IMG/VR virus record: IMGVR_UViG_3300020577_006545
Location: 1-64,000 of that record
Length of the DNA: 64,000 bases
Origin: a virus
Lineage: Duplodnaviria > Caudoviricetes
Direction: 5' to 3' (one strand)
In this document: positions 6,815-62,124 of the stretch, piece by piece
How positions within the stretch are numbered: position 1 is the first letter of the stretch
Layout of the letters: every line of letters begins with the position of its first letter
Notes under the pieces: generated by a model
Told to the model about the DNA's origin: nothing
The model's input: only the letters and a program-made list of their open reading frames with translations
Databases searched by the model: none
Translations under genes and position numbers: made by a program

Positions 6815-7591
6815 ATGAAAAAATTCATATCGTCTTTATTGATATTACTTACCGCATCATTATGCGCTCCACATCACGAAACAGCGCAAGAGAAACAAAA
6901 AAGATTTTTTAAAGATATAATCATTGCGATGGCATTCCAAGCCGCTGCCCAAAATCCACCACAGTATGAACAATCTGATTGTACAAAATATTCTCCAGCA
7001 TTGAACGTAGCTTATCCTTTATATTGGCCTACTTTTCATGCTGACACCACCCAATACACAACAGTTATCATAGGAGACAGCACAATGGCTATAAATGGCT
7101 CCTACGCTGGTTTTAATGGCGCTGGGACACAGAATGTGGCTATTGGTGGTAATACATCATGTGATATGATTACTCAATTACCTGCTATAAACACAATTGC
7201 TCCAAGTGTTATTATAGTATCTACAAATGGTGGTAATGATATGCTAGCACAGGTTTCTGACACTAATGTCATCAATACAAATACTCTTCTTATTAAGAGA
7301 TTACATCAAAAATACCCAAATGCTAAACTAGTTGTTGTTGGTGTCCACCCTACAAAAAGCACTTATGGCAATGCTCATAAAGCGGCCATTAATACAGGAA
7401 CACAAAATGCTCTTAATGCAGAATACACAACTGCATCTCAAAGATGCTACGTTAATCCATTAACATTGTTTGGGGTTGCAGAAGGCCAAGCGGCCAATGA
7501 TAGCGATATGCTGGATCAAATTCACTACAATCAAGCGATGTCATTTTCTATTAAGAATAAGATACAAACGGATTGCGGGATAACTTTCTAA
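6815..7591 (+). CDS. SGNH/GDSL hydrolase family exported protein (possible lipoprotein)
   Basis: Signal peptide ending LC; block I IGDST, block III GGND, DQIHYN catalytic DxxH. Confidence 0.8.
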   Translation: MKKFISSLLILLTASLCAPHHETAQEKQKRFFKDIIIAMAFQAAAQNPPQYEQSDCTKYSPALNVAYPLYWPTFHADTTQYTTVIIGDSTMAINGSYAGFNGAGTQNVAIGGNTSCDMITQLPAINTIAPSVIIVSTNGGNDMLAQVSDTNVINTNTLLIKRLHQKYPNAKLVVVGVHPTKSTYGNAHKAAINTGTQNALNAEYTTASQRCYVNPLTLFGVAEGQAANDSDMLDQIHYNQAMSFSIKNKIQTDCGITF

Positions 7592-8049
7592 TCAGTTATT
7601 AGAAGTAATTTATATTTGTTATAAAACTTCTTATCATATTCACGAACATATTCGTTGAATATATAAGGAATTTTATCTTTTATGATGAATATAAGCGAAT
7701 CTAGATGCCCCATTTTTTCTTCATCTGTTTTTGGGTATTCTATTTTATTATTATATGGGTTTAAGAGTTTACCTCTATAACAATAAGTTTTATGTTTTTC
7801 ATTTCCATACCATACGATAGCAGGGCCATTTACTCTACTAACTTCACCATTTTGATACCATATTTTAGTTTTGTCTTTGTATATTAGGGCAGGTAAATCG
7901 TTATCTCTATGAAGAATACCTTCTCTATACCACTCTTTCGCACCAGATTTATAATAGACGGCTGGTTTAGCTTCAAAACTATGATAAACCAGCCTGAATT
8001 CGTCTAGATAAGTTGCTCTTACTACATTCTGATTATATATGCCTATCAC
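7588..8049 (-). CDS. MORN-variant repeat protein with C-terminal KY[KR]LL domain
   Basis: HRDNDLPALIY/RVNGPAIVWY repeats; ends FYNKYKLLLITD. Confidence 0.7.
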   Translation of the reverse strand: MIGIYNQNVVRATYLDEFRLVYHSFEAKPAVYYKSGAKEWYREGILHRDNDLPALIYKDKTKIWYQNGEVSRVNGPAIVWYGNEKHKTYCYRGKLLNPYNNKIEYPKTDEEKMGHLDSLIFIIKDKIPYIFNEYVREYDKKFYNKYKLLLITD

Positions 8050-8066
8050 TAGGCATTAACTTATTT

Positions 8067-8939
8067 TTAAAAGAAGTCAATAGAAGAAACTGTATTTTTT
8101 TCAAACTCTTGAATTGATCTGTTTTCGGTAAGAACAAAGATTTTTTCACTTGTTTGATAAATAACATTACCCTTTATTCTTGACCCGTTTTTCAGAACAA
8201 TGGCACTTTTAATCATTTCAGAATTTCTCGTAGAAGAATAGTTTGGGCTTCTGATGATTTCAATAGCTTCTTTTTCTGCCTTTCTAATTTTTTCCTGCGA
8301 TTCTGTTTCAAGCCCCTTGATATCACCTTCTGCCGCTCTATCAATATTTTCTTTACTGATTGTTACTAGAGTAACAATGTCTGTAACCTCTGAGACAGAA
8401 GGAATGTAATTTTCATTTACAACCTTTTCTGTTCCTGAACTACCTATCTCAACAGATTTTTTCTCTACAATCGTTCCCTGTGAACTGCTTCTACCGACAT
8501 AGATTGGCCCTTCGACAGAGTTGAAGATTGTGCTTTCTCTGCTTGAATAGACAAAGAATGTAGTTCCTCTAACGCCAGCGACCGCTGTTGGGGTTATGAT
8601 ATTGAATTCTGATCCAGTGTCAAGTTTATTAGAAACTCTGATAAGCATTGAGCCGTTAACAGTTTCAATGTTAGTCACTTTCTTATTAAGAGAAGCTACT
8701 CTAATTTTAGTAAATTCCTTTACTAAAATAGTAGCACCTTCCCGACTCTGTAGAGTCACTTTTCCATTCTCTGTTCTTACAATATCAGTTTGCCTTACGA
8801 TTTGTCCGACATGGACGCCATTATTTTCATTGATTAAAACGTCACCGTAAACTGACGTAATAACCATTCTTGCTTCTTCTGTCTCTTTTTTACAATAAAA
8901 AAGAGATAAAAAAATCGCTAATATCAATAGTTTTTTCAT
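8067..8939 (-). CDS. FecR-domain exported protein
   Basis: Signal MKKLLILAIFLSLFYC-KKE; IITPTAVAGVRGTTFFV FecR motif; start moved to 8939 to match promoter. Confidence 0.8.
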   Translation of the reverse strand: MKKLLILAIFLSLFYCKKETEEARMVITSVYGDVLINENNGVHVGQIVRQTDIVRTENGKVTLQSREGATILVKEFTKIRVASLNKKVTNIETVNGSMLIRVSNKLDTGSEFNIITPTAVAGVRGTTFFVYSSRESTIFNSVEGPIYVGRSSSQGTIVEKKSVEIGSSGTEKVVNENYIPSVSEVTDIVTLVTISKENIDRAAEGDIKGLETESQEKIRKAEKEAIEIIRSPNYSSTRNSEMIKSAIVLKNGSRIKGNVIYQTSEKIFVLTENRSIQEFEKNTVSSIDFF

Positions 8940-8947
8940 TTGGTATA

Positions 8948-8976
8948 AATATACCATGTTATGCGGTAGATGTCAA
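8948..8976 (-). promoter_or_regulatory. sigma70 promoter, leaderless FecR mRNA
   Basis: TTGACA-17-TATATT-8-ATG. Confidence 0.7.
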
Positions 8977-8979
8977 ATG

Positions 8980-9807
8980 TTATTTAGTAAATTCTAAACT
9001 GTCTATATAGTCATAAGTTATTACGCTATAATGCAAGTGAACGCCTTTTGAATACCCTGTGTTTCCCATATAGCCAACAACATCGCCCCTTCTAACAGTT
9101 TGACCGTATTTTGCTTTTGCATATAATAGGTGCGCGTACAATGTTTTGTAAAACCCATTACTTATTACTACAACATTCCCATAGCCTCCATATAGAGTAT
9201 CATACCCAGCATATCCAGAAAAGACAACTGTTCCTGTCATAGTTGATTTAATGGGCGTCCCTAAACCATTTGATATATCAATACCATAATGCATTGACAT
9301 TTTCCCTGTGAATGGGTCAGGGCGCATTCCGTAACCAGACATAAACCATCCTTGAGCTGGCATCCCTTGAGGAATACTGAATGTGGCTCTTAACCTTGAA
9401 TCTGGAACAGTATTTATAACTGTCCACATCATACAGTCTGCATTCCTGCATTTATCCAAATTTTCAGAAACATTCTCATCTATTTCGCTCTCTTCAAAAG
9501 CATCAACAAATCTTTTATTTATAGATTTAATCAATCTTTTCTTTTCTAACATTTCTTTATCATAGTCTGCCATTAATGAAGTTTGAGTAATGTATCTAGT
9601 TTTAGCATGTTCATATCTGTCTTTGAATAATGGGTGTACGATAAAAGAATATGATGTTATAGAAAATGTGATTATTAAAAGACTTATAAATATTCCTATT
9701 GTAATGAAATTCAATTTTAAAGTATAGACCATTTTATCCTTTACTAATTTAAATGTAATATAAGAAAACATCAAATTATCAAGCATTTTAGAGATTTTTT
9801 GGAACAT
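8980..9807 (-). CDS. M23 family metallopeptidase with N-terminal membrane anchor
   Basis: MHYGIDI (HxxxD), LYAHL, GPH-like GVHLHY motifs. Confidence 0.9.
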   Translation of the reverse strand: MFQKISKMLDNLMFSYITFKLVKDKMVYTLKLNFITIGIFISLLIITFSITSYSFIVHPLFKDRYEHAKTRYITQTSLMADYDKEMLEKKRLIKSINKRFVDAFEESEIDENVSENLDKCRNADCMMWTVINTVPDSRLRATFSIPQGMPAQGWFMSGYGMRPDPFTGKMSMHYGIDISNGLGTPIKSTMTGTVVFSGYAGYDTLYGGYGNVVVISNGFYKTLYAHLLYAKAKYGQTVRRGDVVGYMGNTGYSKGVHLHYSVITYDYIDSLEFTK

Positions 9808-18374: not shown

Positions 18375-19106
18375 TCAGATTAGAAACTCAAACGTGACGT
18401 TCAAGAGTTCCTTTAACTTTCCACCTTTATTCAGTTCATTGTAGTGTTTTACATACACATCAATGGAATTATTTTGATTTTTTATCTTCAAAAATTTTGC
18501 AAACTTTAGTGTTTCTTCGTTGAGAAACAAAAGATATGGACTAATTATACCAAGTTTTAACATAACAATCCAGTCTGGATATTCCTTTCCTAAGTGATTT
18601 ATGTGAAAAAATTGTTTATGATAATCTTCTTCTTGATTTATATTATTATCATTTAAAAAGATTTCAATATTATGTTTTGTCTTATTGAAATTTTCAATGA
18701 ATAGTTCTTTATCAGGATCGTCACAAACCAATGTCTTAATGTATTCACTATAGAAGTGAAGATTAGTTTTTTTGTTTATGAAAGCGCACTCTGGTTTTGA
18801 TACAATAACCTTCTTACCGTCTGCATACATTGAATGAAAATAAAATCCAGGGAGCAGGTCGTGTGCCTTTGCAAGTTTAGTAAATTTATGCAAATGCTCA
18901 AAGTTAACACTCTTCTCTGGAGACTTCCTTGAGATGATTACTCTTGGCTCACCAGTTTGATAAAACTTAACTCTTTCGTATATAATACCAACATTCTTAA
19001 CCATTTCAATCTCTTCTGGAGAATGATGTTTAACTGGCTTTTCTATTTTCTTCGCTACTGTTTTCTTAGTAGTTTTTTTAGCGTTTTTTTTTACTGGTTT
19101 TTTCAT
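18375..19106 (-). CDS. Hypothetical protein
   Basis: 243 aa, Lys-rich N-terminus. Confidence 0.6.
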   Translation of the reverse strand: MKKPVKKNAKKTTKKTVAKKIEKPVKHHSPEEIEMVKNVGIIYERVKFYQTGEPRVIISRKSPEKSVNFEHLHKFTKLAKAHDLLPGFYFHSMYADGKKVIVSKPECAFINKKTNLHFYSEYIKTLVCDDPDKELFIENFNKTKHNIEIFLNDNNINQEEDYHKQFFHINHLGKEYPDWIVMLKLGIISPYLLFLNEETLKFAKFLKIKNQNNSIDVYVKHYNELNKGGKLKELLNVTFEFLI

Positions 19107-19372
19107 TCGTTACTACCCTCTATCAACAATCTATATTTTTCAATTAATTCTGGTTTCCATTCTTGAATGTAATCTTTTCCTTTGTGAAAAAGGACATTGC
19201 TTCTACTTTCAATTTTGATCTCATATTTTTCGTGTAATAACCCCTCATTTAAAATGAAGAACTCGTTCTTTCTTAACATCAAATCAAGTATTTGTTCTTC
19301 ACTATATGTGAGAAGTTCTGTTTCTGGAATTACTTTCGCCAATTCTCTTCTAATGTATTCTTTATCACTCAT
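19103..19372 (-). CDS. KY[KR]LL-domain family protein
   Basis: TYSEEQIL...WKPELIEKYRLLIE. Confidence 0.65.
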   Translation of the reverse strand: MSDKEYIRRELAKVIPETELLTYSEEQILDLMLRKNEFFILNEGLLHEKYEIKIESRSNVLFHKGKDYIQEWKPELIEKYRLLIEGSNE

Positions 19373-19616
19373 ATGAAAGCACTGACACTGCTTCCACTTT
19401 GTTTTTCAAAACTTCAGTGTTCCCTGGGACAATATTAACCTGAAATGTTTCCAGTGAAAGGCACATGACATCTGTTTTATTTAGTTTTAACTCAACTGCT
19501 CCAATTGCAGTTGGAGCCTTTACTCTAACGAAAACTTCACCTTCATGTTCAAAGGTTCCACCAACGTCAATTGCACTTGCTGGCACACCAGCCGATTTCT
19601 TATTTAATGTAAACAA
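19365..19616 (-). CDS. Small beta-rich hypothetical phage protein
   Basis: 83 aa, TTG start after GGAGG. Confidence 0.6.
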   Translation of the reverse strand: MFTLNKKSAGVPASAIDVGGTFEHEGEVFVRVKAPTAIGAVELKLNKTDVMCLSLETFQVNIVPGNTEVLKNKVEAVSVLSYE

Positions 19617-19639
19617 AATATTCTTTCCTCCGAGTACAC

Positions 19640-19668
19640 ATATTACCGTACAGTTTATAACAAGTCAA
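19640..19668 (-). promoter_or_regulatory. sigma70 promoter overlapping the dnaE-N stop codon
   Basis: TTGACT-17-TAATAT; the -35 box includes the TGA. Confidence 0.6.
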
Positions 19669-21011
19669 ATCTCAATGTCCATAATTTGATTTGAACGAGC
19701 CTCTGACAAAAACCTTTCAAATATTAAGTCATTCTTAATTGGATCAATTTTTGTGATGCTTAATAAATAAGCGGCAAGGCTTCCTGCGGCAGACCCACGA
19801 CCAACTGAAACGTGTTTCTCATCACCTAGAATGTTAATAATATCTGTGATCGTTCTTTGCGTTTCCAATAAATAATCTACATACTCTTTTCTAATTAGCA
19901 TATCTGTTTCATATGTTAATCTTTCTGCATACGTTTTCACTTTCTCTTTTGGAATATATCCATTCTTTACAAACAGTTTAAACTTTTCCTGTAGCAGACT
20001 TTCAAAGTATTCGTTTGAACTTTCAAATTGGCTTGGGTAGTCTGTAAACTTATTATAGTGTTTCTTGTTCAACTGCCAGTTAATATTCTCGCACTTATGT
20101 TTCCATTCGTGATTGTTGATTAAACTTTCAATTAACACATTTTGTGGAATATCATAACCATATTTTTTTGCATTATCAATGATCTCATTTGCCGTCTTCA
20201 TATAAAGAGTTTCTTCACTGATCCATTTAAGATAATCAGGAAGCCCACCCTCATCTTCTAAATCTTTTAGTGTAGTTTTTCTCTTATCAAGCAATTTAAT
20301 AATACGAAGAACATTATCTCCCTCATCTGCATAGTGACAATCCAAACTAAGAATTGTTTTAATACCTAACTCTTTTCCAAATTTCAACAGATAATTATTA
20401 ACTATTTTTTGGTCTGCTACTTGATTGATTTGCAACTCAATATAAAAGTCATCCTTAAATCTTTCTTTATATTGCGACAACCACCTTTTCGCTTCATCAA
20501 ATTTTTTTGCCATAATAAATCTTGATGCAACTCCAGCCAAACAAGCAGAAGACACTAACAAATCATCACCCATTTCAAATAATACTTTTGTAGTAGTTCT
20601 TGGTTTCCCGTGAAACCCATTTAATGTCGCTTCATTGTTGATTTTTATTAATGATTGAATACCCTTTTCTGTTTTAGCAACTGCAAGCAAATGATTATTA
20701 ACATTATCGTCTGGATTTAAATTTCCATCATCAGCGTCTCCGTCACCATCTGCATTTTTCTTTTTTTCTCTACCATCATTAAGATAAAGTTCAATCCCTA
20801 CCCCTGGGACTACATTTTTCTTTTTGCACATTTTGTAAAAATCAATAATACCATCAAGAGTACCGTGATTTGTTAATCCTATAAACCCAATATTATTAGA
20901 TACTGCCTTTTCAATATAACTTTCAGTTGTTGAACAACCGTCTGCGCTGAAGTCATTATGACAATGTATTAGCGATGTAGTTTCAAGTTCCGTGGAATAC
21001 AATTTTGACAT
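19665..21011 (-). CDS. dnaE: DNA polymerase III alpha subunit, N-terminal part only (PHP domain + start of palm)
   Basis: IHCHNDFS..DG, GLTNHG, HLLAVAK, FYIELQ, DCHY, VGRGSAAGSL..LSITKIDPI..LIFERFL; stops before the PDIDxD motif. Confidence 0.9.
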   Translation of the reverse strand: MSKLYSTELETTSLIHCHNDFSADGCSTTESYIEKAVSNNIGFIGLTNHGTLDGIIDFYKMCKKKNVVPGVGIELYLNDGREKKKNADGDGDADDGNLNPDDNVNNHLLAVAKTEKGIQSLIKINNEATLNGFHGKPRTTTKVLFEMGDDLLVSSACLAGVASRFIMAKKFDEAKRWLSQYKERFKDDFYIELQINQVADQKIVNNYLLKFGKELGIKTILSLDCHYADEGDNVLRIIKLLDKRKTTLKDLEDEGGLPDYLKWISEETLYMKTANEIIDNAKKYGYDIPQNVLIESLINNHEWKHKCENINWQLNKKHYNKFTDYPSQFESSNEYFESLLQEKFKLFVKNGYIPKEKVKTYAERLTYETDMLIRKEYVDYLLETQRTITDIINILGDEKHVSVGRGSAAGSLAAYLLSITKIDPIKNDLIFERFLSEARSNQIMDIEI

Positions 21012-23581: not shown

Positions 23582-25048
23582 CTAAATCTCTACTTGATGA
23601 ACTGCATTCAACAGTGCTTCTTTGTCTTGCTCAAGAAGTTTCATTACATCAAAAATCTTTTCACTGAAACCAGCAAGTGCGAACACTTTGTTTTCAGGAA
23701 ATTGAAGACTTCCATAACCTTGCAAGTCAAAACTATAGATGTAAGGGTCGCTTCCAACCGATTTCTTATAGTTCTGGAAAGATGCATCTGGTCTGTTACT
23801 TCTGTAACCACCTGTCACCCACGCTTGCATGTCTGACAAGACAATAATTCTGTCAAACTTCAATTTCTTTTCTGTAATCTTATCAAAGATACAGTTGAAG
23901 TTCGTTCCCCCACCGTGAAAACCAATTGCGTCTACAATTGATTTGAGGCTGTTGCCAGCGTCAATTCTTTTGATAGTTGCACTGTCGTCAAATGTTAGAA
24001 CAACAGAAGTATCTGGATTTCTCTTGTGAATAGCGGCGGCAAATAGAGAACCAATTTCACTTGGCTTTCCACTCATTGAACCTGAAACATCAAGAGCGAT
24101 TAAAGTTTCACCTTCAAGTTCTGGAACATTGTTCACAGAAATATCAAGTGCTTTACTCAATGCGTTCAAAACTTTTTTTGAAAGTTTCACATCTGCATCA
24201 TAAACTTTTTCAATCTCTTTGATTGCTGTCATAAATCTAAATGGTAGAATTAAGGATTTCTTAATTGCTACTTCATTAGTTAATTGACGGCAAGCCTCAT
24301 CAACCATTTCTGGTGCTTGAGTAATTATGTTTCTCAGGTTTCTAAGAAGAGCGAATATACCAAGTTTTTTAGTCTCAAGCAATTCTTTCCAAGCCTTACC
24401 TTTCAGTTCGGCTACTTCTTCTTCACCTTCTGCTTTACCAGCCTCACTCAACATTGCTTCCCAAGTATCAACATTCTTGAGTTTTCCAGACATTAAGTCT
24501 TTGAACACTTGAACATTTTTTTCACTTGGCTTTGGGTGAATGAGGTTGAAAGCATCAACCATTCCAAGTTCTTTTCCAGAACCAGCGTATTTAGCAAGTT
24601 GATAACCATCAAACTTGTTCAACGCTCTTGCCAAACCATCTTTCAATGAATTTGGAAGTGGCTTACCATACTTATTCATGTAATAAGCGAGAATTTCAGT
24701 AATATCGTCTGCACGATACACAACCTTTTCATAGAAAGGTCTTGTCCATTGCTCACCTTTTACTTGTTTTGCAATCTCACCTGCTACTGCGTGTGTGATT
24801 GAGCGCATACCAAACTGTGTTCTTGCAAACACTGCGGCCTTTGCCGCAAATTTCTTGTCTTTCAACTGTGAAATTAGTTGTGAAACTTTCTCAAGAGTTT
24901 CGTTAGAACCTCTATAAAATTGTTCACCTGCGAATGAAGTCAAGAGAATAGAAATTAATTCCAACTCTGCACTTTCTTGATGCGCGTCGCCACCAGCATA
25001 GTTTTGTATTGCTGGTGCCTTTTGTCTCGTTTTGTTAAACTTTGACAT
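23582..25048 (-). CDS. rsr: Ro60 / TROVE-domain RNA-binding protein with vWA domain
   Basis: NYAGG.A, RTQFGMRS, LPNSLKDGLARA..KFDGYQLAKY, ALLRNLRNI, LPFRFMTA, vWA DVSGSM MIDAS, IVLSDMQ. Confidence 0.95.
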   Translation of the reverse strand: MSKFNKTRQKAPAIQNYAGGDAHQESAELELISILLTSFAGEQFYRGSNETLEKVSQLISQLKDKKFAAKAAVFARTQFGMRSITHAVAGEIAKQVKGEQWTRPFYEKVVYRADDITEILAYYMNKYGKPLPNSLKDGLARALNKFDGYQLAKYAGSGKELGMVDAFNLIHPKPSEKNVQVFKDLMSGKLKNVDTWEAMLSEAGKAEGEEEVAELKGKAWKELLETKKLGIFALLRNLRNIITQAPEMVDEACRQLTNEVAIKKSLILPFRFMTAIKEIEKVYDADVKLSKKVLNALSKALDISVNNVPELEGETLIALDVSGSMSGKPSEIGSLFAAAIHKRNPDTSVVLTFDDSATIKRIDAGNSLKSIVDAIGFHGGGTNFNCIFDKITEKKLKFDRIIVLSDMQAWVTGGYRSNRPDASFQNYKKSVGSDPYIYSFDLQGYGSLQFPENKVFALAGFSEKIFDVMKLLEQDKEALLNAVHQVEI

Positions 25049-27662: not shown

Positions 27663-28052
27663 ATGAAATTAATACAAAAAATTTTATATAAAAGAAAGAA
27701 ATGGTATGTTAAGAGAAATCGTTATAAAAGAAAACGCAGGATGTCGTTTAGAGAAATAAAAGTGTTGTGGGATAAAATCAATAATACGCAATATAATAAT
27801 GACGAATACTATTATGGACTTAGAAGTGTGTCGGATATTCTAACACAAATTCTTATTTCAAATCAAAAAAGTTTTCGTATATATTATTTTGATGATAATG
27901 ATGTTTTTGATATGATTAAGATTATAGAAACAGTTAGAAATAGAGATGTATTAAGAAAAACGCTTACTGGTGGTATGATTTGCTTTAAATTCATTAGTGA
28001 TTTAAGAATCACTAATAGTGAATTGTATTTGAAATACAGGCTTTTATTATAA
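27663..28052 (+). CDS. KY[KR]LL-domain family protein
   Basis: ends ELYLKYRLLL*. Confidence 0.65.
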   Translation: MKLIQKILYKRKKWYVKRNRYKRKRRMSFREIKVLWDKINNTQYNNDEYYYGLRSVSDILTQILISNQKSFRIYYFDDNDVFDMIKIIETVRNRDVLRKTLTGGMICFKFISDLRITNSELYLKYRLLL

Positions 28053-28429
28053 TGGTAAATCATAAAATTTTAAAAATAAAAGGAACGGAGAACTCATTTA
28101 TTCTTTCATCTGATGACACTAATACAATAAAAGTATTAATAAATAATGCTAATGATATTGCACTTGTTATTACAGATATGATGAAACGGTTTGAAGAAAG
28201 TAGATTTCAAACTGAAATTTTGGGGTTTAAGGCAGATGCAGATGGAGTAGTGAAGTTTACTATGGAGTTTACGATAGGAGAGACATTTGGAGAAATGACA
28301 GAAGACAAATTTCTTGAGTATTTGAATATCTATAGTGATGTTAAATATAAAAATTTTGTAAGAGCAATTAGAAATGCATCTGTGCAATTTGATAAAATGT
28401 GCGAGAAATATAAACTATTAATTGAGTGA
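28052..28429 (+). CDS. KY[KR]LL-domain family protein
   Basis: MTEDKFLEYL...MCEKYKLLIE*. Confidence 0.65.
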   Translation: MVNHKILKIKGTENSFILSSDDTNTIKVLINNANDIALVITDMMKRFEESRFQTEILGFKADADGVVKFTMEFTIGETFGEMTEDKFLEYLNIYSDVKYKNFVRAIRNASVQFDKMCEKYKLLIE

Positions 28430-28808
28430 AATTATGATTAAAGGAATGACTATAAGAACTTTTAACGAACTTGAAAAAGTTGTAAAATCATATTCTTCAT
28501 TTTATGGGGAAGATGTTGATTTTAGAGTTGAAGAAATAGGAATTGGACATATTGAATTAACTTTCATTTTTTATGAATTTAAGAGTGTTGAACTAATTAA
28601 AGAAGTGATGAAGGCAGTTAAACCTAACATAGTTATTAGTGTTAGATGTGATTGGCGTTTGTTTTTAGTTGCAACAGATTTTACAGAAGAAGATTTTATA
28701 CAATTTCTTACTGAAGAAAAACCAGATGAATGGGTGTTAAAATCAATTGCAGAAAATAATAAAAGAGTTGCTCTTTTGTGTGAAAAGTATAAACTATTAG
28801 TGGGGTAA
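28422..28808 (+). CDS. KY[KR]LL-domain family protein
   Basis: FTEEDFIQFL...LCEKYKLLVG*. Confidence 0.65.
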   Translation: MSEIMIKGMTIRTFNELEKVVKSYSSFYGEDVDFRVEEIGIGHIELTFIFYEFKSVELIKEVMKAVKPNIVISVRCDWRLFLVATDFTEEDFIQFLTEEKPDEWVLKSIAENNKRVALLCEKYKLLVG

Positions 28809-39346: not shown

Positions 39347-39964
39347 ATGACTATAAAAATAATAGACAAATGTAATGATTGTGGACATTATAGTAATGCT
39401 GAAAATTTTAGAATGATATTTGGTAATTTTTTAATCGGCAGAAGTAAATGTCCTAATTGTAAATCCAAAAATATAGAACAAAATTGGTGTCCTCCAAAAC
39501 CAAAAGCACCTCCGCCAGGCCAAGGAATTAAAAAAAATAAAAAAAAATAATGGAAAAACCAAAACCACCAATAGGTAAGGTTTTTTATGAAGGTGATGAG
39601 CCAAGAGTTTTAGCAAGATACATTTATGAAAATGAAATTCATATGTTTAGTACACTATGTCCAAAGTGTGGCTCTTCTTTAAAAAAGAAATTTTTATTTT
39701 TTCGTTCAAAACATTGCATACAATGGAGATGTAGTAACTATTATGGAAACCATCAAAGTAAATAAAAAGGTATGGTTAGTGTTTGATAGATACCCACAAT
39801 CACCAGAGTTAAGTGTTGTTTGCTTTACATCAAAAGTAAAAGCAAAGAAATGGATGGATGAAATGAATGGATTAGTTGATGATGATGAAAGAAATTTTTA
39901 CAATTTAAAAGAAGATGAGATGCAATTTTATGGACCATTTCCATTTAAGTTAAAAGGCGAATAA
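39347..39964 (+). other. Three small hypothetical ORFs (39347-39550 and 39550-39765 zinc ribbons; 39743-39964)
   Basis: CxxC pairs in the first two; translational overlaps. Confidence 0.55.
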
Positions 39965-40035
39965 TTTTTAATATCGCTTGCTTTATGGCGATGCTTATGA
40001 TAAGATATATTATATTCTCATCAAACGCAAGTTGA

Positions 40036-40251
40036 ATGTCTGAAAGTAATTTCATAGATTATTATCGTATTCTTGAATTATTAGAAGATGAAGATAAGTT
40101 TGTTGATTTTCTTATAGAAAATCAAAAGCTACATCCGATAAGCGTTATCGTAATGAGTGCATTACGCCCACCCGATATAATTCCACTGAGTTTTTTCGTT
40201 GAACGACATAAACCGGAATTGTATGAGAAATATAAATTATTATTAACGTAA
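40036..40251 (+). CDS. KY[KR]LL-domain family protein (minimal, domain only)
   Basis: EDEDKFVDFL...HKPELYEKYKLLLT*; promoter TTGCTT-17-TAAGAT at 39978-40006. Confidence 0.7.
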   Translation: MSESNFIDYYRILELLEDEDKFVDFLIENQKLHPISVIVMSALRPPDIIPLSFFVERHKPELYEKYKLLLT

Positions 40252-41578: not shown

Positions 41579-42196
41579 ATGTTATACCGTGTAAACCTTG
41601 AATTTAAACCCACCAAAATTCAATTACTTTCTGGTGTAGTTAGTTTTAACACTAATTGGATTTTAGACAGACAAAAATTTATTGATTGGATTTATAAAGA
41701 ACCAATTCTGGTTGATCCGATGAAGCCTAATTCATCTTATCAACATGATATTAGGCAAAAAATGAGGGACGCTGGCAGTAACGGGTACAGCCACAGCGGA
41801 ATGTTTAAAGTAGATAGTATAGAAATCTCATCAAATATTGATGAGAAAGAACTGACTGCTGACAAATTGAAAAATTTACAAGGTGAGTATGTTGAAATAG
41901 CGTGTAAATTAAATTCTAAGTGTGAAAAGGTGTATGTATCGTTTTTAATTAATGTTGATTTATATGAAGGTATTCACCGTCTTTTTAGAAGTTTGTTTGT
42001 TATCCCTAATGATTGGCTGATTGAAGAAAAAGGTTTCCCTTTAAATGAATATTCTTTAAGAGAAGAATGTTATCAAGAACTTATTGCGAAAGAAGTTAAT
42101 TTGGTTGCGTATGGTTATGCAATCACACAAAAGGATACATTTTTGCAAATAATGAATCCATCGCTTTATGAAAAATATGCGTTATTGAGAAATTGA
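41579..42196 (+). CDS. KY[KR]LL-domain family protein (long N-terminus)
   Basis: ends MNPSLYEKYALLRN*. Confidence 0.65.
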   Translation: MLYRVNLEFKPTKIQLLSGVVSFNTNWILDRQKFIDWIYKEPILVDPMKPNSSYQHDIRQKMRDAGSNGYSHSGMFKVDSIEISSNIDEKELTADKLKNLQGEYVEIACKLNSKCEKVYVSFLINVDLYEGIHRLFRSLFVIPNDWLIEEKGFPLNEYSLREECYQELIAKEVNLVAYGYAITQKDTFLQIMNPSLYEKYALLRN

Positions 42197-42197
42197 T

Positions 42198-42431
42198 ATG
42201 AACAAATATGTAAAAGAAACTATAGAATTGATTAAATCACTTGAAGAAGAAGAGATACTTGAAATTCTTCTCTCTGAAAAGAGAGACAATCCTGTTGAAC
42301 TAATGCCATTTATCAACAGGGACAAAGTTACTTTAGGGATTATTGTTCATAAGTTTCGTCCAGAAGTTGTAGAGAAATATAAGTTACTAATAGATGAGAA
42401 AGAAGATGAAGAACAATACTACGACGATTGA
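42198..42431 (+). CDS. KY[KR]LL-domain family protein
   Basis: SLEEEEIL...FRPEVVEKYKLLID. Confidence 0.65.
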   Translation: MNKYVKETIELIKSLEEEEILEILLSEKRDNPVELMPFINRDKVTLGIIVHKFRPEVVEKYKLLIDEKEDEEQYYDD

Positions 42432-42675
42432 TGAATTTAATACTACTCCATCAAGATTGCTTAGAAATTGTCTTGAGAATTTTAATAGTGGGTCGTATCT
42501 TATTTATAGATTTGGTAGAGAATTTTTGTCTTTAAGCGAAGATGAGAAAATAGAATTTATTATTTTATTAAATCAAACAGAAGATATTAAAAACACATAT
42601 TTATCAAGTCTAACAGCATTGATTATGGCAAGCGATATGGAGTTTTATGAGAAATACAAAGTTATCATTAACTGA
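42394..42675 (+). CDS. KY[KR]LL-domain family protein
   Basis: LSEDEKIEFI...EFYEKYKVIIN*. Confidence 0.6.
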   Translation: MRKKMKNNTTTIDEFNTTPSRLLRNCLENFNSGSYLIYRFGREFLSLSEDEKIEFIILLNQTEDIKNTYLSSLTALIMASDMEFYEKYKVIIN

Positions 42676-42994
42676 TATTAAAAGATACGGATTTAAGTAT
42701 TTTCTACTTGAGTCGGATCATCCTGAGAATAAGGAAGGAAGTTTTGCGTGGAGTAAACTAAAATTTGTTTATGCAAACAAAGGGAAGGTGTATGTGGAAA
42801 ATCAAATAGATTTATTAGATTTTGAAAAAATGCTTAAAGAAGCAACAGAAGAAGAATTGATAGAGTTCGTCACTACTGCGAAACTTGTTTTTATTAATCT
42901 AAAAGCAAGAGAGATGTATGGGGAAAGAGGTGAGAAATATTTTGCCGCTGTGATACCAAAGTTCTATAAAAAATATAAGTTACTATTTGCATGA
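42647..42994 (+). CDS. KY[KR]LL-domain family protein
   Basis: ATEEELIEFV...PKFYKKYKLLFA*. Confidence 0.65.
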   Translation: MRNTKLSLTDIKRYGFKYFLLESDHPENKEGSFAWSKLKFVYANKGKVYVENQIDLLDFEKMLKEATEEELIEFVTTAKLVFINLKAREMYGERGEKYFAAVIPKFYKKYKLLFA

Positions 42995-47189: not shown

Positions 47190-47969
47190 ATGGCTTGGAA
47201 AGCGGTATATAGTGTATACAATGAAGCAAAGTTTTTAGAAAAATCAATTATGAATATAATTGATGAGATGGATAAAATCATTATAGTTGAGGGGTGTTGG
47301 TTAAATGGGGAGAAAATTACTGGCAGTTTAAGAAGCACCGATGGTACTATAGAGATTTTAGAAAGACTAAAAAAAACATACCCAAATAAATTTGAAATTT
47401 GTTATGAAAATAAATTAAATGAACAACGACAACGAGATAACTATTTAGAAAAACTTGAAGATGGTGATAATGTTCTATGGCTTGATGGAGATGAAATTCT
47501 TATTAAGAAAGAATTAAAAGAAGCAAAGACGTATGTTGAACATATGTTCAAGATAGGGCATCAAATGTTATTTGCACATTACATAAATGTGTTTGATGCA
47601 GGTGCAGTCAAAGACACTCATTTACGTGGCTTGTTTTTTAAATTTAGAAGCGATATAAGGTATCTTGATAATGAAAGGGCTAAAGGAAGTCCTGGTGAAG
47701 TTTATCTATTTGAAAATTATGGTAAAGGAAATCTCTATAACAAATCAATGCCAGTAATTGATTGGGATATAGTTAAGGTTTTTCATTTTAAATATTGTAA
47801 AGACCTTGATAAACTTGTTGAAAGAAGATTGATGTATGAGAGTGTTTGGAGGCAGTTACCAGATGAAAAATTAGAAGAAACAAGGATTTCATTAGAAGAG
47901 GAATATAAAACAAAATATAAATCAGGGTTAAAATTTGAAAATGTATATGAAGGAGAACTACCTATATGA
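47190..47969 (+). CDS. GT2-like glycosyltransferase
   Basis: VYNE..FLEKSI, IIIVEG, WLDGDE, VFHF. Confidence 0.8.
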   Translation: MAWKAVYSVYNEAKFLEKSIMNIIDEMDKIIIVEGCWLNGEKITGSLRSTDGTIEILERLKKTYPNKFEICYENKLNEQRQRDNYLEKLEDGDNVLWLDGDEILIKKELKEAKTYVEHMFKIGHQMLFAHYINVFDAGAVKDTHLRGLFFKFRSDIRYLDNERAKGSPGEVYLFENYGKGNLYNKSMPVIDWDIVKVFHFKYCKDLDKLVERRLMYESVWRQLPDEKLEETRISLEEEYKTKYKSGLKFENVYEGELPI

Positions 47970-48292
47970 TGATTACAAGTATAAATAGAGCAACTGTTGA
48001 AATGAGATTGAATCCAGATGAATACGAAGCTTTAATGCAATTGTTTAGGAACTCATACAATGGGGCTATTGGCGGTATGGATTACAATAGTATAAAGTTT
48101 GCAAATTTTGTGACTAATACATTAACTGCTGATATTATTGAAAGTAATAAATGTAATGAAGATTTTCTATTATCACTTTTAAATGGTTCAACATCAGTAA
48201 TTGTTGATGGCAATACTGTTGATTTTAAATATTATGCAAAATCTCGTCTACCTGAATTTTCAGAGAAATACAAGTTATTATTGAATGAATAA
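47966..48292 (+). CDS. KY[KR]LL-domain family protein
   Basis: CNEDFLL...RLPEFSEKYKLLLNE*. Confidence 0.65.
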   Translation: MMITSINRATVEMRLNPDEYEALMQLFRNSYNGAIGGMDYNSIKFANFVTNTLTADIIESNKCNEDFLLSLLNGSTSVIVDGNTVDFKYYAKSRLPEFSEKYKLLLNE

Positions 48293-48575
48293 TTTTAGTT
48301 TTACAACTTCCATATCGTCATCAGTAATTGATGGTATGGATGAGGACAGATTGTTAGAAGAAGTTTTATTAGCGATTAAAAATGACAATTTAAATCATTT
48401 TGCAGTTACAGTTGCCACATTAGTTGAATACGATAGTAATAACGATATTTATGAAAGGCAATCTGTTTTAGAACATCACGATGAAAGTTTTGACATATCT
48501 TATTATGCCTTATCAGAGTATCTACAAAAATTTAGAAAAGAATTTTATGAAAAGTATAAATTATTATTGGAGTGA
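48285..48575 (+). CDS. KY[KR]LL-domain family protein
   Basis: MDEDRLL...RKEFYEKYKLLLE*. Confidence 0.65.
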   Translation: MNNFSFTTSISSSVIDGMDEDRLLEEVLLAIKNDNLNHFAVTVATLVEYDSNNDIYERQSVLEHHDESFDISYYALSEYLQKFRKEFYEKYKLLLE

Positions 48576-48841
48576 CTATGTGGTTTAATGAAACGAAAAA
48601 ACCAAAAGATATTTTGTCAAGTGTAAAAATAAGAGAGATTACAGAGGATAACTTTCTTTTATGGATAATGACGATCAATAATCATCCAGAATTAGATATT
48701 AGAAAATATCAAGTTCAAATTGAAGATGTTGACGAAGTAATTGAACAAAAATTTTCATTATTTCAATTGGTACCATTAGCAGAATATTTAAAAGAAAGCC
48801 GTCCTGATTTTTATGAAAAGTATAGACTATTATTGGAGTGA
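48572..48841 (+). CDS. KY[KR]LL-domain family protein
   Basis: ITEDNFL...RPDFYEKYRLLLE*. Confidence 0.65.
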   Translation: MTMWFNETKKPKDILSSVKIREITEDNFLLWIMTINNHPELDIRKYQVQIEDVDEVIEQKFSLFQLVPLAEYLKESRPDFYEKYRLLLE

Positions 48842-49608
48842 GTATGTTAAAAAATGACGTAATAATTGTAATTCCAACCTGGAATGCTAAAAATTTAATA
48901 TTGAAAGCGGTTAATTCCGTTATTGCACAAGAAAGAAAGAACTTTAGTCTTGGTATTATTATTAGAGATGATTTAAGTGACGACGGGACGTATCAGGAAT
49001 TAACAAATTTTTTCAAAATGGGTGCAATAAACGAAGAATACTTTAAAATAGATGACGTTGATTTTGTTTTCAAAAGAAATGCAGAAAAACTGTATGCTCC
49101 TGGTAACATTTATGAAAGTGTTTTAGACTATGTTGATAATGATGAGGCAATAATAGGAACATTAGATGGTGATGATAGTCTTATTGGGACAACTGTTCTT
49201 AAAGAAATTTACGATATATATCAAAAACATAATCCATTAGTTGTTTATACACAATACAAAAACAATTCAGGTGGAATAGGACATTGTGCAAGAATAGAAG
49301 ACACTGCAAATTATAGAAGCAGAGGACAATGGTGCAGTTCTCATTTTAGAACAGCAAAAGCGCACCTGTATAAGAAGATAATAAAAGAGGACTTGATGTA
49401 TAACGGTGACTATTTTAAACAGGGTGGAGATTTGGCATTAGTATATCCACTGGTTGAGATGGCTGGCAATGATAGAACAATATTCTACGATAAAGTTTGT
49501 TATTTATATAACAATAACCTACCAACAAATGACCATAATATGAATTTAAACGGTCAGAGACAAATGGCTAAAATTATACAATCAAAAGAACCTTACGCCC
49601 AATTATGA
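48838..49608 (+). CDS. GT2 family glycosyltransferase
   Basis: IVIPTWN, DDLSDDGT, LDGDD, SHFRT, GDLAL. Confidence 0.88.
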   Translation: MSMLKNDVIIVIPTWNAKNLILKAVNSVIAQERKNFSLGIIIRDDLSDDGTYQELTNFFKMGAINEEYFKIDDVDFVFKRNAEKLYAPGNIYESVLDYVDNDEAIIGTLDGDDSLIGTTVLKEIYDIYQKHNPLVVYTQYKNNSGGIGHCARIEDTANYRSRGQWCSSHFRTAKAHLYKKIIKEDLMYNGDYFKQGGDLALVYPLVEMAGNDRTIFYDKVCYLYNNNLPTNDHNMNLNGQRQMAKIIQSKEPYAQL

Positions 49609-49916
49609 TAGAGACAGGACGAAAATATATATCAATATCTAAAAATTTAATGGTGTTACGTTTTGAGGTAACTCTGTATGATCCAGAAAACCTTGAACCA
49701 AAAGAAGTTAAAAGACTTCAAGTTTCGGACACACAATTGAACGAATGTAGTGAAGATGATTTTATAGCATTAGTGTCTTATTTTAATCAGAACCCAGGGT
49801 TCATTTATGAAATACATGAAATGTCTAGTCCATCAAGAAAAACTTTTTTTGCAGATTGGGTGAAAAAATATAAAATCAGTTGGTATGAAAAGTACCGATT
49901 GTTAATACCGGAGTAA
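49605..49916 (+). CDS. KY[KR]LL-domain family protein
   Basis: CSEDDFIAL...WYEKYRLLIPE*. Confidence 0.65.
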   Translation: MIETGRKYISISKNLMVLRFEVTLYDPENLEPKEVKRLQVSDTQLNECSEDDFIALVSYFNQNPGFIYEIHEMSSPSRKTFFADWVKKYKISWYEKYRLLIPE

Positions 49917-60542: not shown

Positions 60543-60543
60543 A

Positions 60544-61056
60544 ATGGTTTATTACAGTAGCAACGGGAACATATCACATATAGATTTAGAAAGAGAAAGT
60601 TCCCCTGACTACATTTTAGAAGCAGTTAAAAGCGGATACAAAGTAAGATTTTGTATCCGCTTAATGAGTGACGATAATCTCTGGATAGGTGAACATGAGG
60701 CAAAGTATAAAATAGAAGACATTGATTTTCTATTTAAAAATTCAAAACATTTCTTAATACATTGTAAGAACATAAGTTCATTACATAAATTACGTGAGAT
60801 TGATTTAAAAAAACAGTTGCATTATTATTATCATGCAACAGATAATGTATCAATTTCTTCAAAAGGATATTTCTTAATAGATTATGGTAAACGGCCTCTT
60901 GGAGAAAATGTTATTGCGATGTTTCCAGAAGACACAGATTATCAGATAAGTGATTTGAAAAAATGTTTTGGTGTATGTTCAGGCAACATAGAATTCTATA
61001 AGAAATTAATTGAAAATGAAACATCTGGAAGTAATACAAAATCAATATCTGCCTGA
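60544..61056 (+). CDS. Degenerate PLC-like/glycerophosphodiesterase-fold protein
   Basis: ESSPDYILEAV..GY, IHCKN, YYYH..D, ..GVCS. Confidence 0.5.
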   Translation: MVYYSSNGNISHIDLERESSPDYILEAVKSGYKVRFCIRLMSDDNLWIGEHEAKYKIEDIDFLFKNSKHFLIHCKNISSLHKLREIDLKKQLHYYYHATDNVSISSKGYFLIDYGKRPLGENVIAMFPEDTDYQISDLKKCFGVCSGNIEFYKKLIENETSGSNTKSISA

Positions 61057-61513
61057 AAATTTAGAAGAAGTGATGGAGGTAGTTATTGATACTATTCCTA
61101 AATTATCATTTCTTGATAAAACGACAAAAATTGATGTTAAATTTGACGCGCAAGCGATTAGAGCATCAGTGTTTAAAAGTAATAATATGGACACATTTAT
61201 GTCAAAAATTGTAGTTAATCTATATCCATATTTGAACGATTTAAAATTATATTTTGCAAGAAGAAGAGTTGGAGAACACTTTACTCTTTCTATTGAGGAT
61301 GTAGCGGATTACCATAGATTTCATATTATAGTTCCTTATTATCTTCTTGATTTTAAAGCATTAACAGAAGAAGAAAAAATTTACTGTGTTGAACAAATAG
61401 GTAAACACTACAAGTTTAATCTAACATTAGACCCGCACGACATTGGTAATGTTATGTGGATAAAGGAACATGATTTTGAATTCTATCACAAATACAGGTT
61501 ACTATTACAATGA
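61010..61513 (+). CDS. KY[KR]LL-domain family protein
   Basis: LTEEEKIY...FEFYHKYRLLLQ*. Confidence 0.65.
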   Translation: MKMKHLEVIQNQYLPENLEEVMEVVIDTIPKLSFLDKTTKIDVKFDAQAIRASVFKSNNMDTFMSKIVVNLYPYLNDLKLYFARRRVGEHFTLSIEDVADYHRFHIIVPYYLLDFKALTEEEKIYCVEQIGKHYKFNLTLDPHDIGNVMWIKEHDFEFYHKYRLLLQ

Positions 61514-62124
61514 ATATAAATTTTACAAATGAGAAGACTTTACAAGGTCTTAAGCTATCAAACTTTCTTCATATCAAAGAAAGGAGGTTTGTCAATTCTG
61601 TTAAAGAAAAAATAGTAAGTGTTATTAATGATAAACTACAAAAACAGGAATTATTTACTTTATGTGAAATTGAGTTTGATAATGATTTTACTAAATTAGA
61701 AAGTTTATCAAATGAGAAAAAAATGATTTTGTCAGTGTTTCACGAAACAGAAGTTGAAAATAACATACTCCCAATCTATGTGACGTTGCATCTGTTTACA
61801 AAAAATTTGAAAATGTATTTGTTTAATAGAACACTGTTAAAAGAACAAATTGCAAGATTTTTTACATACGAAGAAAAATTTTTTTATGAAAAAACTGAAT
61901 ACCTTCTAACTATGATGACAGGGGCATTCTGCCTTGATTTTAAAGAATTGCCAGAAGAAGAAAAATTAACTGCACTTGATATATGCAAAGATACCCCATT
62001 GTTTTTATATCCTCCTAATATTGGCTCTCCAGTTTTTCATAATGTAAGACCCACTCTTGATATAGATTGGGTAAGACAAAATGATACCCTATTTTATCAA
62101 AAATACCGATTATTATTTGAGTAA
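61510..62124 (+). CDS. KY[KR]LL-domain family protein
   Basis: LPEEEKLT...TLFYQKYRLLFE*. Confidence 0.65.
   Translation: MNINFTNEKTLQGLKLSNFLHIKERRFVNSVKEKIVSVINDKLQKQELFTLCEIEFDNDFTKLESLSNEKKMILSVFHETEVENNILPIYVTLHLFTKNLKMYLFNRTLLKEQIARFFTYEEKFFYEKTEYLLTMMTGAFCLDFKELPEEEKLTALDICKDTPLFLYPPNIGSPVFHNVRPTLDIDWVRQNDTLFYQKYRLLFE

What the first reader, a model, noticed from the sequence alone, without database searches (positions are those of the whole stretch)
7588..62124. Sixteen ORFs share a C-terminal domain ending in KY[KR]LL behind unrelated N-termini
Seen: ORFs at 7588, 19103, 27663, 28052, 28422, 40036, 41579, 42198, 42394, 42647, 47966, 48285, 48572, 49605, 61010 and 61510 all end within a few residues of (F/L/W)(Y/x)(E/x)KY(K/R)LL(L/I/F). 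Many have Y/F/W-x4-P(E/D) just before it, and an acidic (S/T)E(E/D)(E/D)-hydrophobic helix about 30-45 aa upstream. Codons vary synonymously (Arg as AGG/AGA/CGA, Tyr TAT/TAC), so selection is on the protein. The smallest members (71-77 aa) are almost domain-only; others add 50-150 aa unrelated N-termini, including MORN-like repeats. They occur singly or in tandem runs between replication and glycosylation genes, on both strands. Inference: a modular adaptor system with a constant C-terminal docking or targeting tag and variable N-terminal recognition modules. It might deliver cargo to a protease/ATPase, a phage compartment or the capsid, loosely analogous to F-box/SOCS-box adaptors.
Basis: partly seen in the sequence, partly recalled or inferred. 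Interest (0 to 1): 0.85.

Follow-up and report, generated by a model that had tools for sequence, protein, structure and literature searches.

The report
Expanded small-domain protein family, jumbo phage
An uncultured giant phage carries dozens of copies of one undescribed small protein domain whose last helix reads "...FYEKY(K/R)LL"; the family is real and under selection, but it is one more lineage-specific gene expansion of the kind already known from jumbo phages, and its function is untested.

Summary
All 16 ORFs end in the motif: 14 have strict KY[KR]LL, one has KYALL and one KYKVI. Nine more lie in the rest of the 87-kb record, and at least 8 more in the next 20 kb of a near-identical 356-kb metagenome contig. 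Chance predicts about one motif in this record. Codon use and dN/dS (0.04 in the tail) show selection on the protein, not the DNA.

The motif is not a loose tag. AlphaFold2 puts it in the last helix of a compact ~60-70-residue alpha/beta domain (pLDDT 88.6), together with the conserved (T/S)EE(E/D) helix. About 15% of family members have 12-55 residues after the motif, so a free C-terminus is not required. About half of this phage's members are little more than the domain.

Pfam, PHROGs, NCBIfam, PADLOC, PDB and BFVD give no match. A profile search of 1.84 billion proteins finds 62 clusters, all unnamed metagenomic proteins of 67-204 aa. Related phage contigs carry tandem arrays of 9-13.

Most likely these are soluble, mostly acidic accessory proteins built on one scaffold. 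This scan noted the same family in an overlapping window, and other expanded families in other jumbo phages.

The parts
7588..8049 (-). Family member, 153 aa. GTG start is uncertain. Long N-terminal extension with beta-hairpin-like repeats.
   Evidence: Ends ...KFYNKYKLLLITD. External profile E 6.7e-12. AlphaFold2: C-terminal residues 102-153 have pLDDT 80-96 with the helix-strand-strand-helix-helix core; the N-terminus is below 50.
19103..19372 (-). Family member, 89 aa, between the ribonucleotide reductase and DNA polymerase III alpha genes.
   Evidence: Ends ...ELIEKYRLLIEGSNE. Profile E 3.9e-11.
27663..28052 (+). Family member, 129 aa, with a very basic N-terminus (net charge +16).
   Evidence: Ends ...ELYLKYRLLL. 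Profile E 1.6e-4. Charge.
28052..28429 (+). Family member, 125 aa.
   Evidence: Ends ...MCEKYKLLIE. Profile E 2.3e-4.
28422..28808 (+). Family member, 128 aa from TTG, or 124 aa from the ATG at 28434. The most divergent member.
   Evidence: Ends ...LCEKYKLLVG. Profile E 8.4e-3. Matches database protein P0035 of 124 aa.
40036..40251 (+). Smallest member, 71 aa, domain only. Used as the structure-prediction target.
   Evidence: AlphaFold2 pLDDT 88.6, pTM 0.73. Strand 5-8, helices 9-17 and 19-28, strands 35-39 and 47-50, helices 51-58 and 60-70. KYKLL lies at residues 65-69 in the last helix.
41579..42196 (+). Family member, 205 aa, variant motif KYALL, N-terminal extension of about 145 aa.
   Evidence: Profile E 5.8e-4. 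Syntenic orthologue in L013 at 52% identity.
42198..42431 (+). Family member, 77 aa, with an acidic 13-residue tail after the motif.
   Evidence: Profile E 1.1e-10. Orthologue in L013 at 78% identity.
42394..42675 (+). Family member, 93 aa, variant motif KYKVI.
   Evidence: Profile E 2.2e-9. Orthologue in L013.
42647..42994 (+). Family member, 115 aa.
   Evidence: Profile E 1.1e-8. Orthologue in L013.
47966..48292 (+). Family member, 108 aa. Its start overlaps the stop of the upstream glycosyltransferase-like gene.
   Evidence: Profile E 1.1e-15. Orthologue in L013.
48285..48575 (+). Family member, 96 aa.
   Evidence: Profile E 2.9e-10. Orthologue in L013.
48572..48841 (+). Family member, 89 aa from GTG, or 87 aa from the ATG at 48578. 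Absent from the L013 lineage.
   Evidence: Profile E 6.5e-13. Near-identical to database protein P0003 on the 356-kb contig. No counterpart in L013.
49605..49916 (+). Family member, 103 aa, directly after a GT2 glycosyltransferase gene.
   Evidence: Profile E 7.6e-14. Orthologue P0005 occurs on at least 24 contigs.
61010..61513 (+). Family member, 167 aa from TTG, or 165 aa from the ATG at 61016. Its N-terminal part is paralogous to that of the next gene.
   Evidence: With tails removed, phmmer against the 61510 protein gives E 6e-7. Profile E 2.8e-9.
61510..62124 (+). Family member, 204 aa.
   Evidence: Profile E 2.1e-5. N-terminal residues 1-140 have only near-identical orthologues in 5.8 billion proteins.

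Best explanation
These genes encode a lineage-specific, heavily duplicated family of small, soluble, mostly acidic proteins. All are built on one compact alpha/beta domain of about 60-70 residues, with the order strand, helix, helix, strand, strand, helix, helix.

Shown or predicted: the '(F/L)Y(E/N)KY(K/R)LL(I/F/L)(E/D)' string is the last helix of that domain. The '(T/S)EE(E/D)xL' string is the start of its second helix. Together they are the best-conserved parts of the fold. The copies are old and individually maintained: there is one-to-one synteny between two phage lineages whose silent sites are saturated, and all parts are under purifying selection. They occupy about a tenth of this 87-kb stretch. 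They are scattered singly and in tandem runs among replication, recombination and sugar-modification genes, often with overlapping stop and start codons.

Inferred: they act inside the infected cell as small binding proteins, for host takeover or counter-defence. Specificity would come from the variable N-terminal extension, the first helix and the strand hairpin. The nearly invariant polar residues (Glu at the start of helix 2; Lys-Tyr-Lys/Arg in the last helix) would either lock the fold by salt bridges or form one shared contact surface. The function is untested. I put about 0.95 on 'real, undescribed, folded-domain family' and about 0.5 on 'intracellular host-interaction binders'.
For: The motif count far exceeds chance. 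Codon usage at invariant positions equals genome usage. Across seven orthologue pairs, window versus L013, dS is above 1.5 with dN/dS 0.18 (N-terminal parts), 0.18 (domain) and 0.04 (tail).

AlphaFold2 on the 71-aa member gives pLDDT 88.6 and pTM 0.73, with the motif in helix 60-70. The same helix-strand-strand-helix-helix core appears at pLDDT 80-96 in the 153-aa member. The ESM Atlas single-sequence model of the 71-aa protein has pLDDT 0.76.

A profile built only from sequences outside this genome finds all 25 members at E<=8e-3, one domain each, scoring up to 62 bits, which is more than a 12-residue tail can give. A tail-less profile from a distant clade ranks 17 members in the top 25 of 1,106 sequences, Mann-Whitney p 2.6e-13.

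There are 62 clusters at E<=1e-3 in 1.84 billion proteins, all 67-204 aa, with no fusions to large proteins. Related contigs carry tandem arrays of 13 and 9-11. At least 8 more members lie in the next 20 kb of the 356-kb contig. Median pI is 5.1 and no member has a membrane-like segment. There is no recurrent hit in Pfam, PHROGs, NCBIfam, PADLOC, PDB sequences, PDB folds or BFVD.
Against: Nothing here bears directly on function. There are no expression, localisation or interaction data, the host is unknown and no cultured relative exists. Sequence similarity upstream of the tail is weak for single members. With tails removed, only one paralogue pair is detectable pairwise, and a leave-one-out profile from this genome alone mostly fails. 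The common-fold claim therefore rests mainly on AlphaFold2 models made from an alignment of the family itself. Old, stably kept paralogues under purifying selection fit an arms-race role less well than fast-turnover families do. The nearly invariant polar Lys-Tyr-Lys/Arg could mean a shared partner or ligand, which would favour the adaptor rival.
Confidence: 0.6

Rival explanations
1. Adaptor network. The conserved domain, through its invariant Glu / Lys-Tyr-Lys/Arg surface, docks every member onto one common hub. Candidates are the phage BCS1-like AAA ATPase, a Clp-type protease or adaptor, tubulin, or a host machine. The variable N-termini would bring different cargo, as F-box or SOCS-box proteins do.
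For: Almost the whole last helix is conserved, polar residues included: K 98%, Y 100%, K/R 97%. That is more than burial of one helix face needs. N-terminal extensions are variable yet under purifying selection, dN/dS 0.18. Three members sit within 1-2 kb upstream of the BCS1-like ATPase gene. A related contig encodes ClpS.
Against: About half of the members are domain-only, with no cargo-binding module. The motif lies inside a folded domain and can be followed by 12-55 residues. No partner gene is a consistent neighbour across lineages. The tested N-terminal module has no independent relatives.
Confidence: 0.15
2. Accessory subunits of the sugar-modification pathway. The small proteins pair with the neighbouring glycosyltransferases and methyltransferases as docking, chaperone or acceptor proteins, and so assemble a multi-enzyme complex.
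For: Ten of the 16 window members lie inside the 36-63 kb glycosylation island. Several have stop/start overlaps with transferase genes, for example 47190-47969 / 47966-48292 and 48572-48841 / 48838-49608 / 49605-49916. This order is kept in a second lineage.
Against: The other 15 members of the record, the 8 in L028 and the 9-13-gene arrays in L020 and L021 sit next to replication, tubulin or capsid genes with no transferases. Overlapping stops and starts are the general gene layout here.
Confidence: 0.1
3. Antitoxin-like neutralisers. The domain is a distant Phd/YefM-type fold, and the paralogues bind and block host toxins of abortive-infection systems.
For: The order of secondary-structure elements matches Phd/YefM. 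Phd/YefM chains top the Foldseek PDB list and the Atlas structure list. VIA-align gives YefM 2a6q_A Z 2.8, rmsd 2.7 A over 42 residues. The proteins are small and acidic, as antitoxins are.
Against: All scores are at noise level: Foldseek E about 1, TM 0.27-0.43, Z 2.8. The Pfam Phd/YefM model finds nothing in the record even at E<=10, and none of 90 members hits it at E<=0.05. Here the C-terminal part is the constant one, the reverse of Phd/YefM families. No toxin gene is adjacent.
Confidence: 0.05
4. The C-terminal string is a free terminal signal (degron, secretion signal, capsid-packaging signal or clamp-binding tail), or it is a DNA-level element such as a promoter or recombination site at gene ends.
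For: 63% of family sequences stop 2-3 residues after LL. The coding DNA contains TATAAA-like strings.
Against: The string is predicted as a packed helix at pLDDT above 90. 15% of members carry 12-55 further residues. Synonymous sites vary freely and silent sites are saturated between orthologues while the peptide is kept. Promoter-like and terminator-like sites are not enriched.
Confidence: 0.03

Closest known systems
Lineage-specific tandem expansions of small genes in jumbo phages. [quoted passage not shown] 2017, PMC5646251, read). Also the non-essential hyperplastic regions of T4-type phages (Arbiol et al. 2010, PMC2839356, abstract read).
   Same: There are many copies of one uncharacterised small protein in a giant phage genome. 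They sit in tandem runs between core genes, are interpreted as products of duplication, and have unknown function.
   Different: This is a different protein family with no sequence match to PHROGs. The copies are highly diverged (about 20-30% identity) and scattered as well as tandem. Individual copies are conserved one-to-one between lineages. No PeSL-like promoter/terminator cassettes were seen.
F-box / SOCS-box substrate adaptors
   Same: A constant small helical module sits at one end, with variable sequence at the other, in a multi-copy family.
   Different: There is no sequence or fold match. Many members consist of the constant module alone. No hub partner is known, and binding was not tested.
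Phd/YefM antitoxin fold (Pfam PF02604; PDB 2a6q, 3k33).
   Same: Small acidic proteins with the same order of strand and helix elements. Weak top-ranked structural rows.
   Different: Scores are at noise level (Z 2.8 over 42 residues; TM at most 0.43). There is no sequence match. The conserved part is the C-terminal helix pair, not the N-terminal dimerisation domain.
A pair of ankyrin repeats (for example PDB 4ot9, 1nfi, 5vrq, 3kea).
   Same: Two helix-turn-helix units are joined by a hairpin. About 18 of the top 50 rows of the Foldseek-independent search are ankyrin proteins, aligned over 54-61 residues at rmsd 2.4-2.9 A.
   Different: The best Z is only 4.3, below what unrelated models usually reach. 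No ankyrin Pfam hit was found, and there is no TPLH-type repeat signature.

Membership tests
Pfam / PHROGs / NCBIfam / PADLOC families (any) | Significant match of members to a curated family model, recurring across the family. | tested here: not met
   16 or 90 members were scanned. No family was hit by more than one member, and the best E-values were 8e-4 to 0.05.
MORN repeat proteins (N-terminus of the ORF at 7588) | Match to Pfam MORN models. | tested here: not met
   No MORN hit at E<=0.1 or 0.01. AlphaFold2 shows short strands but pLDDT below 50.
Phd/YefM antitoxins (PF02604) | Sequence match to PF02604. | tested here: not met
   No match in the 87-kb record at E<=10. PF02604 is not among the hits of 90 members at E<=0.05.
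Phd/YefM antitoxins (PF02604) | Shared three-dimensional fold. | tested here: inconclusive
   YefM 2a6q_A Z 2.8, rmsd 2.7 A, 42 residues. Foldseek E about 1. Atlas TM 0.43.
Phd/YefM antitoxins (PF02604) | An adjacent cognate toxin gene (Doc or YoeB type), and dimeric DNA binding. | not tested
   Only some neighbouring genes were scanned against family models, and none of those hits was Doc- or YoeB-like. No dedicated search for a toxin gene was run.
Ankyrin repeats | Sequence match to ankyrin models, and a structural match well above background. | tested here: inconclusive
   No Pfam ankyrin hit. The best VIA-align Z is 4.3, within the range of chance arrangements.
F-box / SOCS-box-type adaptors | The constant module binds a common hub, and the variable module binds substrates. 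| not testable with these tools
Domain-only members argue against a general two-module design.
Expanded paralogous small-protein families of jumbo phages (a kind of phenomenon, not a homology family) | Many diverged copies of one small protein in a genome above 200 kb, protein-level selection, and restriction to one phage lineage. | tested here: met
   25 copies in 87 kb plus 8 in the next 20 kb of a 356-kb contig. dN/dS 0.04-0.18. All 62 clusters are unnamed metagenomic proteins. Related phage-like contigs of 115-203 kb carry arrays.

The most novel reading that the evidence does not exclude
The invariant Glu / Lys-Tyr-Lys/Arg surface of the domain is a docking site for one shared hub, whether a phage or host AAA+ machine, a protease adaptor, or the phage tubulin or compartment. 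On this reading, the 30 or more paralogues form a phage-encoded adaptor or decoy network that routes or blocks many different targets. This would be a bacterial-virus counterpart of the F-box/SOCS-box logic.
Probability: 0.12. Interest if true: 0.8.

Novelty: new member of a known kind. Interest (0 to 1): 0.42.

Why it matters
Jumbo phages spend a large share of their coding capacity on expanded families of small proteins that nobody has characterised. This family takes about 10% of the stretch examined and has at least 33 copies. It has a confidently predicted fold with no clear structural relative. It also has a sharply conserved helix that makes it easy to find and to mutate. It is therefore a tractable entry point: small, soluble, probably easy to express. 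It could show what such expansions do, such as host takeover, counter-defence or assembly. As found here, though, it adds a new family to a known phenomenon and not a new principle.

Tried and rejected
- **Near-identical and protein searches of 50,697 cultured phage records:** no relative of the region or of a member. The Pol III alpha fragment is only about 30% identical to Bacillus-type phage genes.
- **The search for related loci in IMG/VR:** three attempts (alignment, single member, canonical sub-alignment).
- **Exact DNA-pattern scan of IMG/VR for EFYEKY[KR]LL:** four contigs, none a family member. They included a DNA polymerase and a 234-aa ORF that happens to end with the string.
- **Leave-one-out tail-less profile from this genome alone:** mostly insignificant. 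Replaced by profiles from external sequences.
- **Fold searches:** Foldseek PDB and BFVD gave nothing at E<=0.001. VIA-align wide gave a best Z of 4.3. The second look gave a best Z of 2.8.
- **PDB sequence profile search:** best E 0.048 on a 19-residue stretch. A weak EF-hand-like row (caltractin, E 0.47) was rejected because the predicted topology differs.
- **ESM Atlas:** no usable feature hit.
- **Paper searches** for the phenomenon and for the sample accessions: nothing relevant.
- **Other checks:** promoter/terminator scan showed no enrichment. DNA repeats are only the motif-coding segments. No tRNAs in the window.
- **T4 prohead-protease site (L-x-E) and clamp-binding tail readings of the terminal LL(I/F/L)E:** considered and dropped. 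The string is a packed helix, and the residue after it varies (E/D/N/Q/T/G).

Full report
**1. The observation**

The window is AT-rich (about 31% G+C). It is the first 64 kb of an 87,073-nt IMG/VR virus record judged 36% complete.

Translating the 16 listed ORFs shows that each ends 1-13 residues after a (F/L/W)(Y/x)(E/x)KY(K/R)LL(L/I/F) string. There are two variants: KYALL in the ORF at 41579 and KYKVI in the ORF at 42394.

A six-frame scan of the window finds the pattern nowhere else. In the whole record, strict KY[KR]LL occurs 22 times, 19 of them within 15 residues of a stop in an ORF of at least 40 aa. Shuffled sequence gives 0.9 and 0.02.

Five more C-terminal members lie beyond the window, at record coordinates:
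- 71891-72253
- 83441-83803
- 83800-84111
- 84168-84428
- 86237-86578

A tandem run of four at 79334-80423 carries the motif internally, followed by 17-32 residues. That makes 25 members, 9.9% of the record.

**2. Protein-level or DNA-level conservation**

Codons at the invariant Lys, Tyr and Leu positions follow the genome's own synonymous usage. Seven members have syntenic orthologues in a second phage lineage (locus L013, from a 183-kb contig). For these pairs, silent sites are saturated (dS above 1.5), while dN/dS is 0.18 in the N-terminal parts, 0.18 in the domain and 0.04 in the tail.

Promoter-like and terminator-like sites are not enriched. The only DNA repeats are the motif-coding segments. 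So these are real, individually maintained protein-coding genes, and selection acts on the peptide.

**3. Tag or domain**

- *Sequence tests within this genome.* With the last 9 or more residues (from four residues before the KY, through the C-terminus) removed, pairwise searches detect only one paralogue pair, 61010/61510. A leave-one-out profile from this genome alone is mostly insignificant.
- *Profiles from external sequences.* A profile built only from sequences outside this genome recovers all 25 members at E<=8e-3, with one domain each. Scores reach 62 bits over 60-75 residues. A tail-less profile from a distant clade alone (23 sequences from L020 and L021) puts 17 members in the top 25 of 1,106 sequences, Mann-Whitney p 2.6e-13.
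- *Structure prediction.* AlphaFold2 on the 71-aa member with a 28-sequence family alignment gives pLDDT 88.6 and pTM 0.73. The order is strand 5-8, helix 9-17, helix 19-28, strands 35-39 and 47-50, helix 51-58, helix 60-70. KYKLL occupies residues 65-69 of the last helix, and the (T/S)EE(E/D) string starts helix 2. The 153-aa member shows the same helix-strand-strand-helix-helix core at pLDDT 80-96, while its N-terminal 100 residues are unresolved. The ESM Atlas single-sequence model of the 71-aa protein is also fairly confident, pLDDT 0.76.
- *Position of the motif.* Over 89 family sequences, 63% stop 2-3 residues after LL, but 15% continue for 12-55 residues.

The motif is therefore the terminal helix of a small folded domain, not a free tag.

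**4. Conservation pattern**

Over 96 sequences there are two conserved blocks:
- [TS]-E(89%)-[ED]-[ED]-x-[LI]-x-x-[ILV]
- [FL]-x-x-[YFW]-[IVL]-x4-P(45%)-[ED]-[FL]-Y(79%)-[ENK]-K(98%)-Y(100%)-[KR]-L-L-[IFL]-[ED]

Nearly the whole last helix is conserved, polar residues included. This could reflect salt bridges to the acidic start of helix 2, or a shared contact surface.

The proteins are mostly acidic (median pI 5.1) and have no membrane-like segments.

**5. Distribution**

A profile search of 1.84 billion cluster representatives gives 62 hits at E<=1e-3. All are 67-204 aa, all unnamed metagenomic proteins, and none is fused to a larger protein.

- A near-identical 356,254-nt ENA contig is probably the full genome. 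Its next 20 kb after the record's end holds at least 8 more members near Pol III alpha, tubulin, a GGDEF-EAL protein and an SbcC-like gene. That makes at least 33 copies in about 107 kb.
- Two contigs from another sample carry arrays. L020 (115 kb) has 12 consecutive members plus one, between Pol III alpha and Mre11-like/tubulin/SbcC genes, syntenic with L028. L021 (203 kb) has 9-11 members just downstream of T4-type portal, prohead protease and gp23 capsid genes.
- No cultured phage has a relative. IMG/VR pattern hits were chance matches.

**6. Comparison with known families**

No member matches Pfam, PHROGs, NCBIfam or PADLOC in a recurrent way. The PDB sequence profile search is empty. Foldseek against PDB and BFVD gives nothing at E<=0.001.

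The Foldseek-independent search is dominated by pairs of ankyrin repeats, but at Z<=4.3. Phd/YefM antitoxins head the Foldseek and Atlas lists and share the element order, but VIA-align gives only Z 2.8 over 42 residues, and PF02604 finds nothing. Both are leads, not memberships.

The 'MORN-like' N-terminus of the ORF at 7588 is not confirmed. The N-terminal 140 residues of the ORF at 61510 have only near-identical orthologues.

**7. Context**

The surrounding genes are those of a jumbo phage:
- ribonucleotide reductase, a split Pol III alpha, a Ro60/TROVE protein, a BCS1-like AAA ATPase and primase;
- many glycosyltransferases, methyltransferases and sugar-nucleotide enzymes;
- DnaB-like helicase, a RecA/UvsX-like protein and homing endonucleases.

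Ten window members lie in the glycosylation island, often with overlapping stops and starts. The remaining members, and the arrays in other lineages, do not. No single neighbour is constant.

**8. Interpretation**

- *Best supported.* This is an undescribed, anciently expanded family of a small autonomous domain, probably intracellular binding proteins. The conserved helices form the scaffold, and the variable extension and hairpin give specificity.
It is weakened by the domain-only members, the internal placement of the motif and the lack of a candidate hub.
- *Other rivals.* Glycosylation accessory subunits, antitoxin-like neutralisers, and terminal-signal or DNA-element readings are less likely, for the reasons given under the rivals.

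**9. Novelty**

Tandem expansions of small genes are a recognised feature of jumbo phages. Hua et al. 2017 (PMC5646251) report arrays of more than 30 similar genes in phage G and 121Q. T4-type hyperplastic regions are described by Arbiol et al. 2010 (PMC2839356).

This scan has already reported several other such families in other jumbo phages, and noted this same family in an overlapping window of this genome. The family itself is new to the libraries searched, so I file it as a new member of a known kind, of moderate interest.

Noticed in passing
window 23582-25048 (-): A phage-encoded Ro60/TROVE protein with a vWA domain (Pfam E 3e-17). Earlier notes of this scan describe Y-RNA-like units next to it.
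   Followed up: no
window 29806-31134 (+): A BCS1-like AAA ATPase with BCS1_N, AAA and BCS1 lid domains (PHROG 7485, function unknown). It lies 1 kb downstream of three family members. It is a candidate partner, but this was not tested.
   Followed up: partly
window 19665-21011 (-) and L028 1858-4221: DNA polymerase III alpha is split. The PHP plus start of the NTPase domain is in the window, and the remainder lies about 70 kb away in the 356-kb contig next to a DUF723 endonuclease-like gene. L020 shows a similar split.
   Followed up: no
L028 11938-13056 and 14156-15586 (356-kb contig, beyond the record): A phage tubulin homologue and a GGDEF-EAL (cyclic-di-GMP turnover) protein lie among further family members.
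   Followed up: no
L021 409-4068: In a related 203-kb contig the T4-type portal gene is interrupted. A 276-aa portal fragment is followed by an 856-aa ORF with intein-splicing and homing-endonuclease domains plus portal sequence. The same locus encodes a ClpS homologue (19390-19683, minus strand).
   Followed up: no
record 64258-64422 (just past the window end): A 54-aa ORF matches only the acidic-helix part of the family profile (E 1e-3). It may be a truncated remnant of a member.
   Followed up: no
window 39347-40251 versus L012/L013 155-1912: Where the window has several small ORFs, including the 71-aa member at 40036, the second lineage has two GIY-YIG/NUMOD3 homing-endonuclease genes instead. 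The member at 48572 is also absent there. So some gain and loss of members occurs despite overall synteny.
   Followed up: partly
window 8980-9807 (-): A 275-aa protein with a metallo-endopeptidase (M23-like) C-terminal domain of the kind found in endolysins and tape-measure proteins (PHROG E 4e-20). A 657-aa protein with an F5/8 type C (discoidin) domain is at 4612-6585.
   Followed up: no
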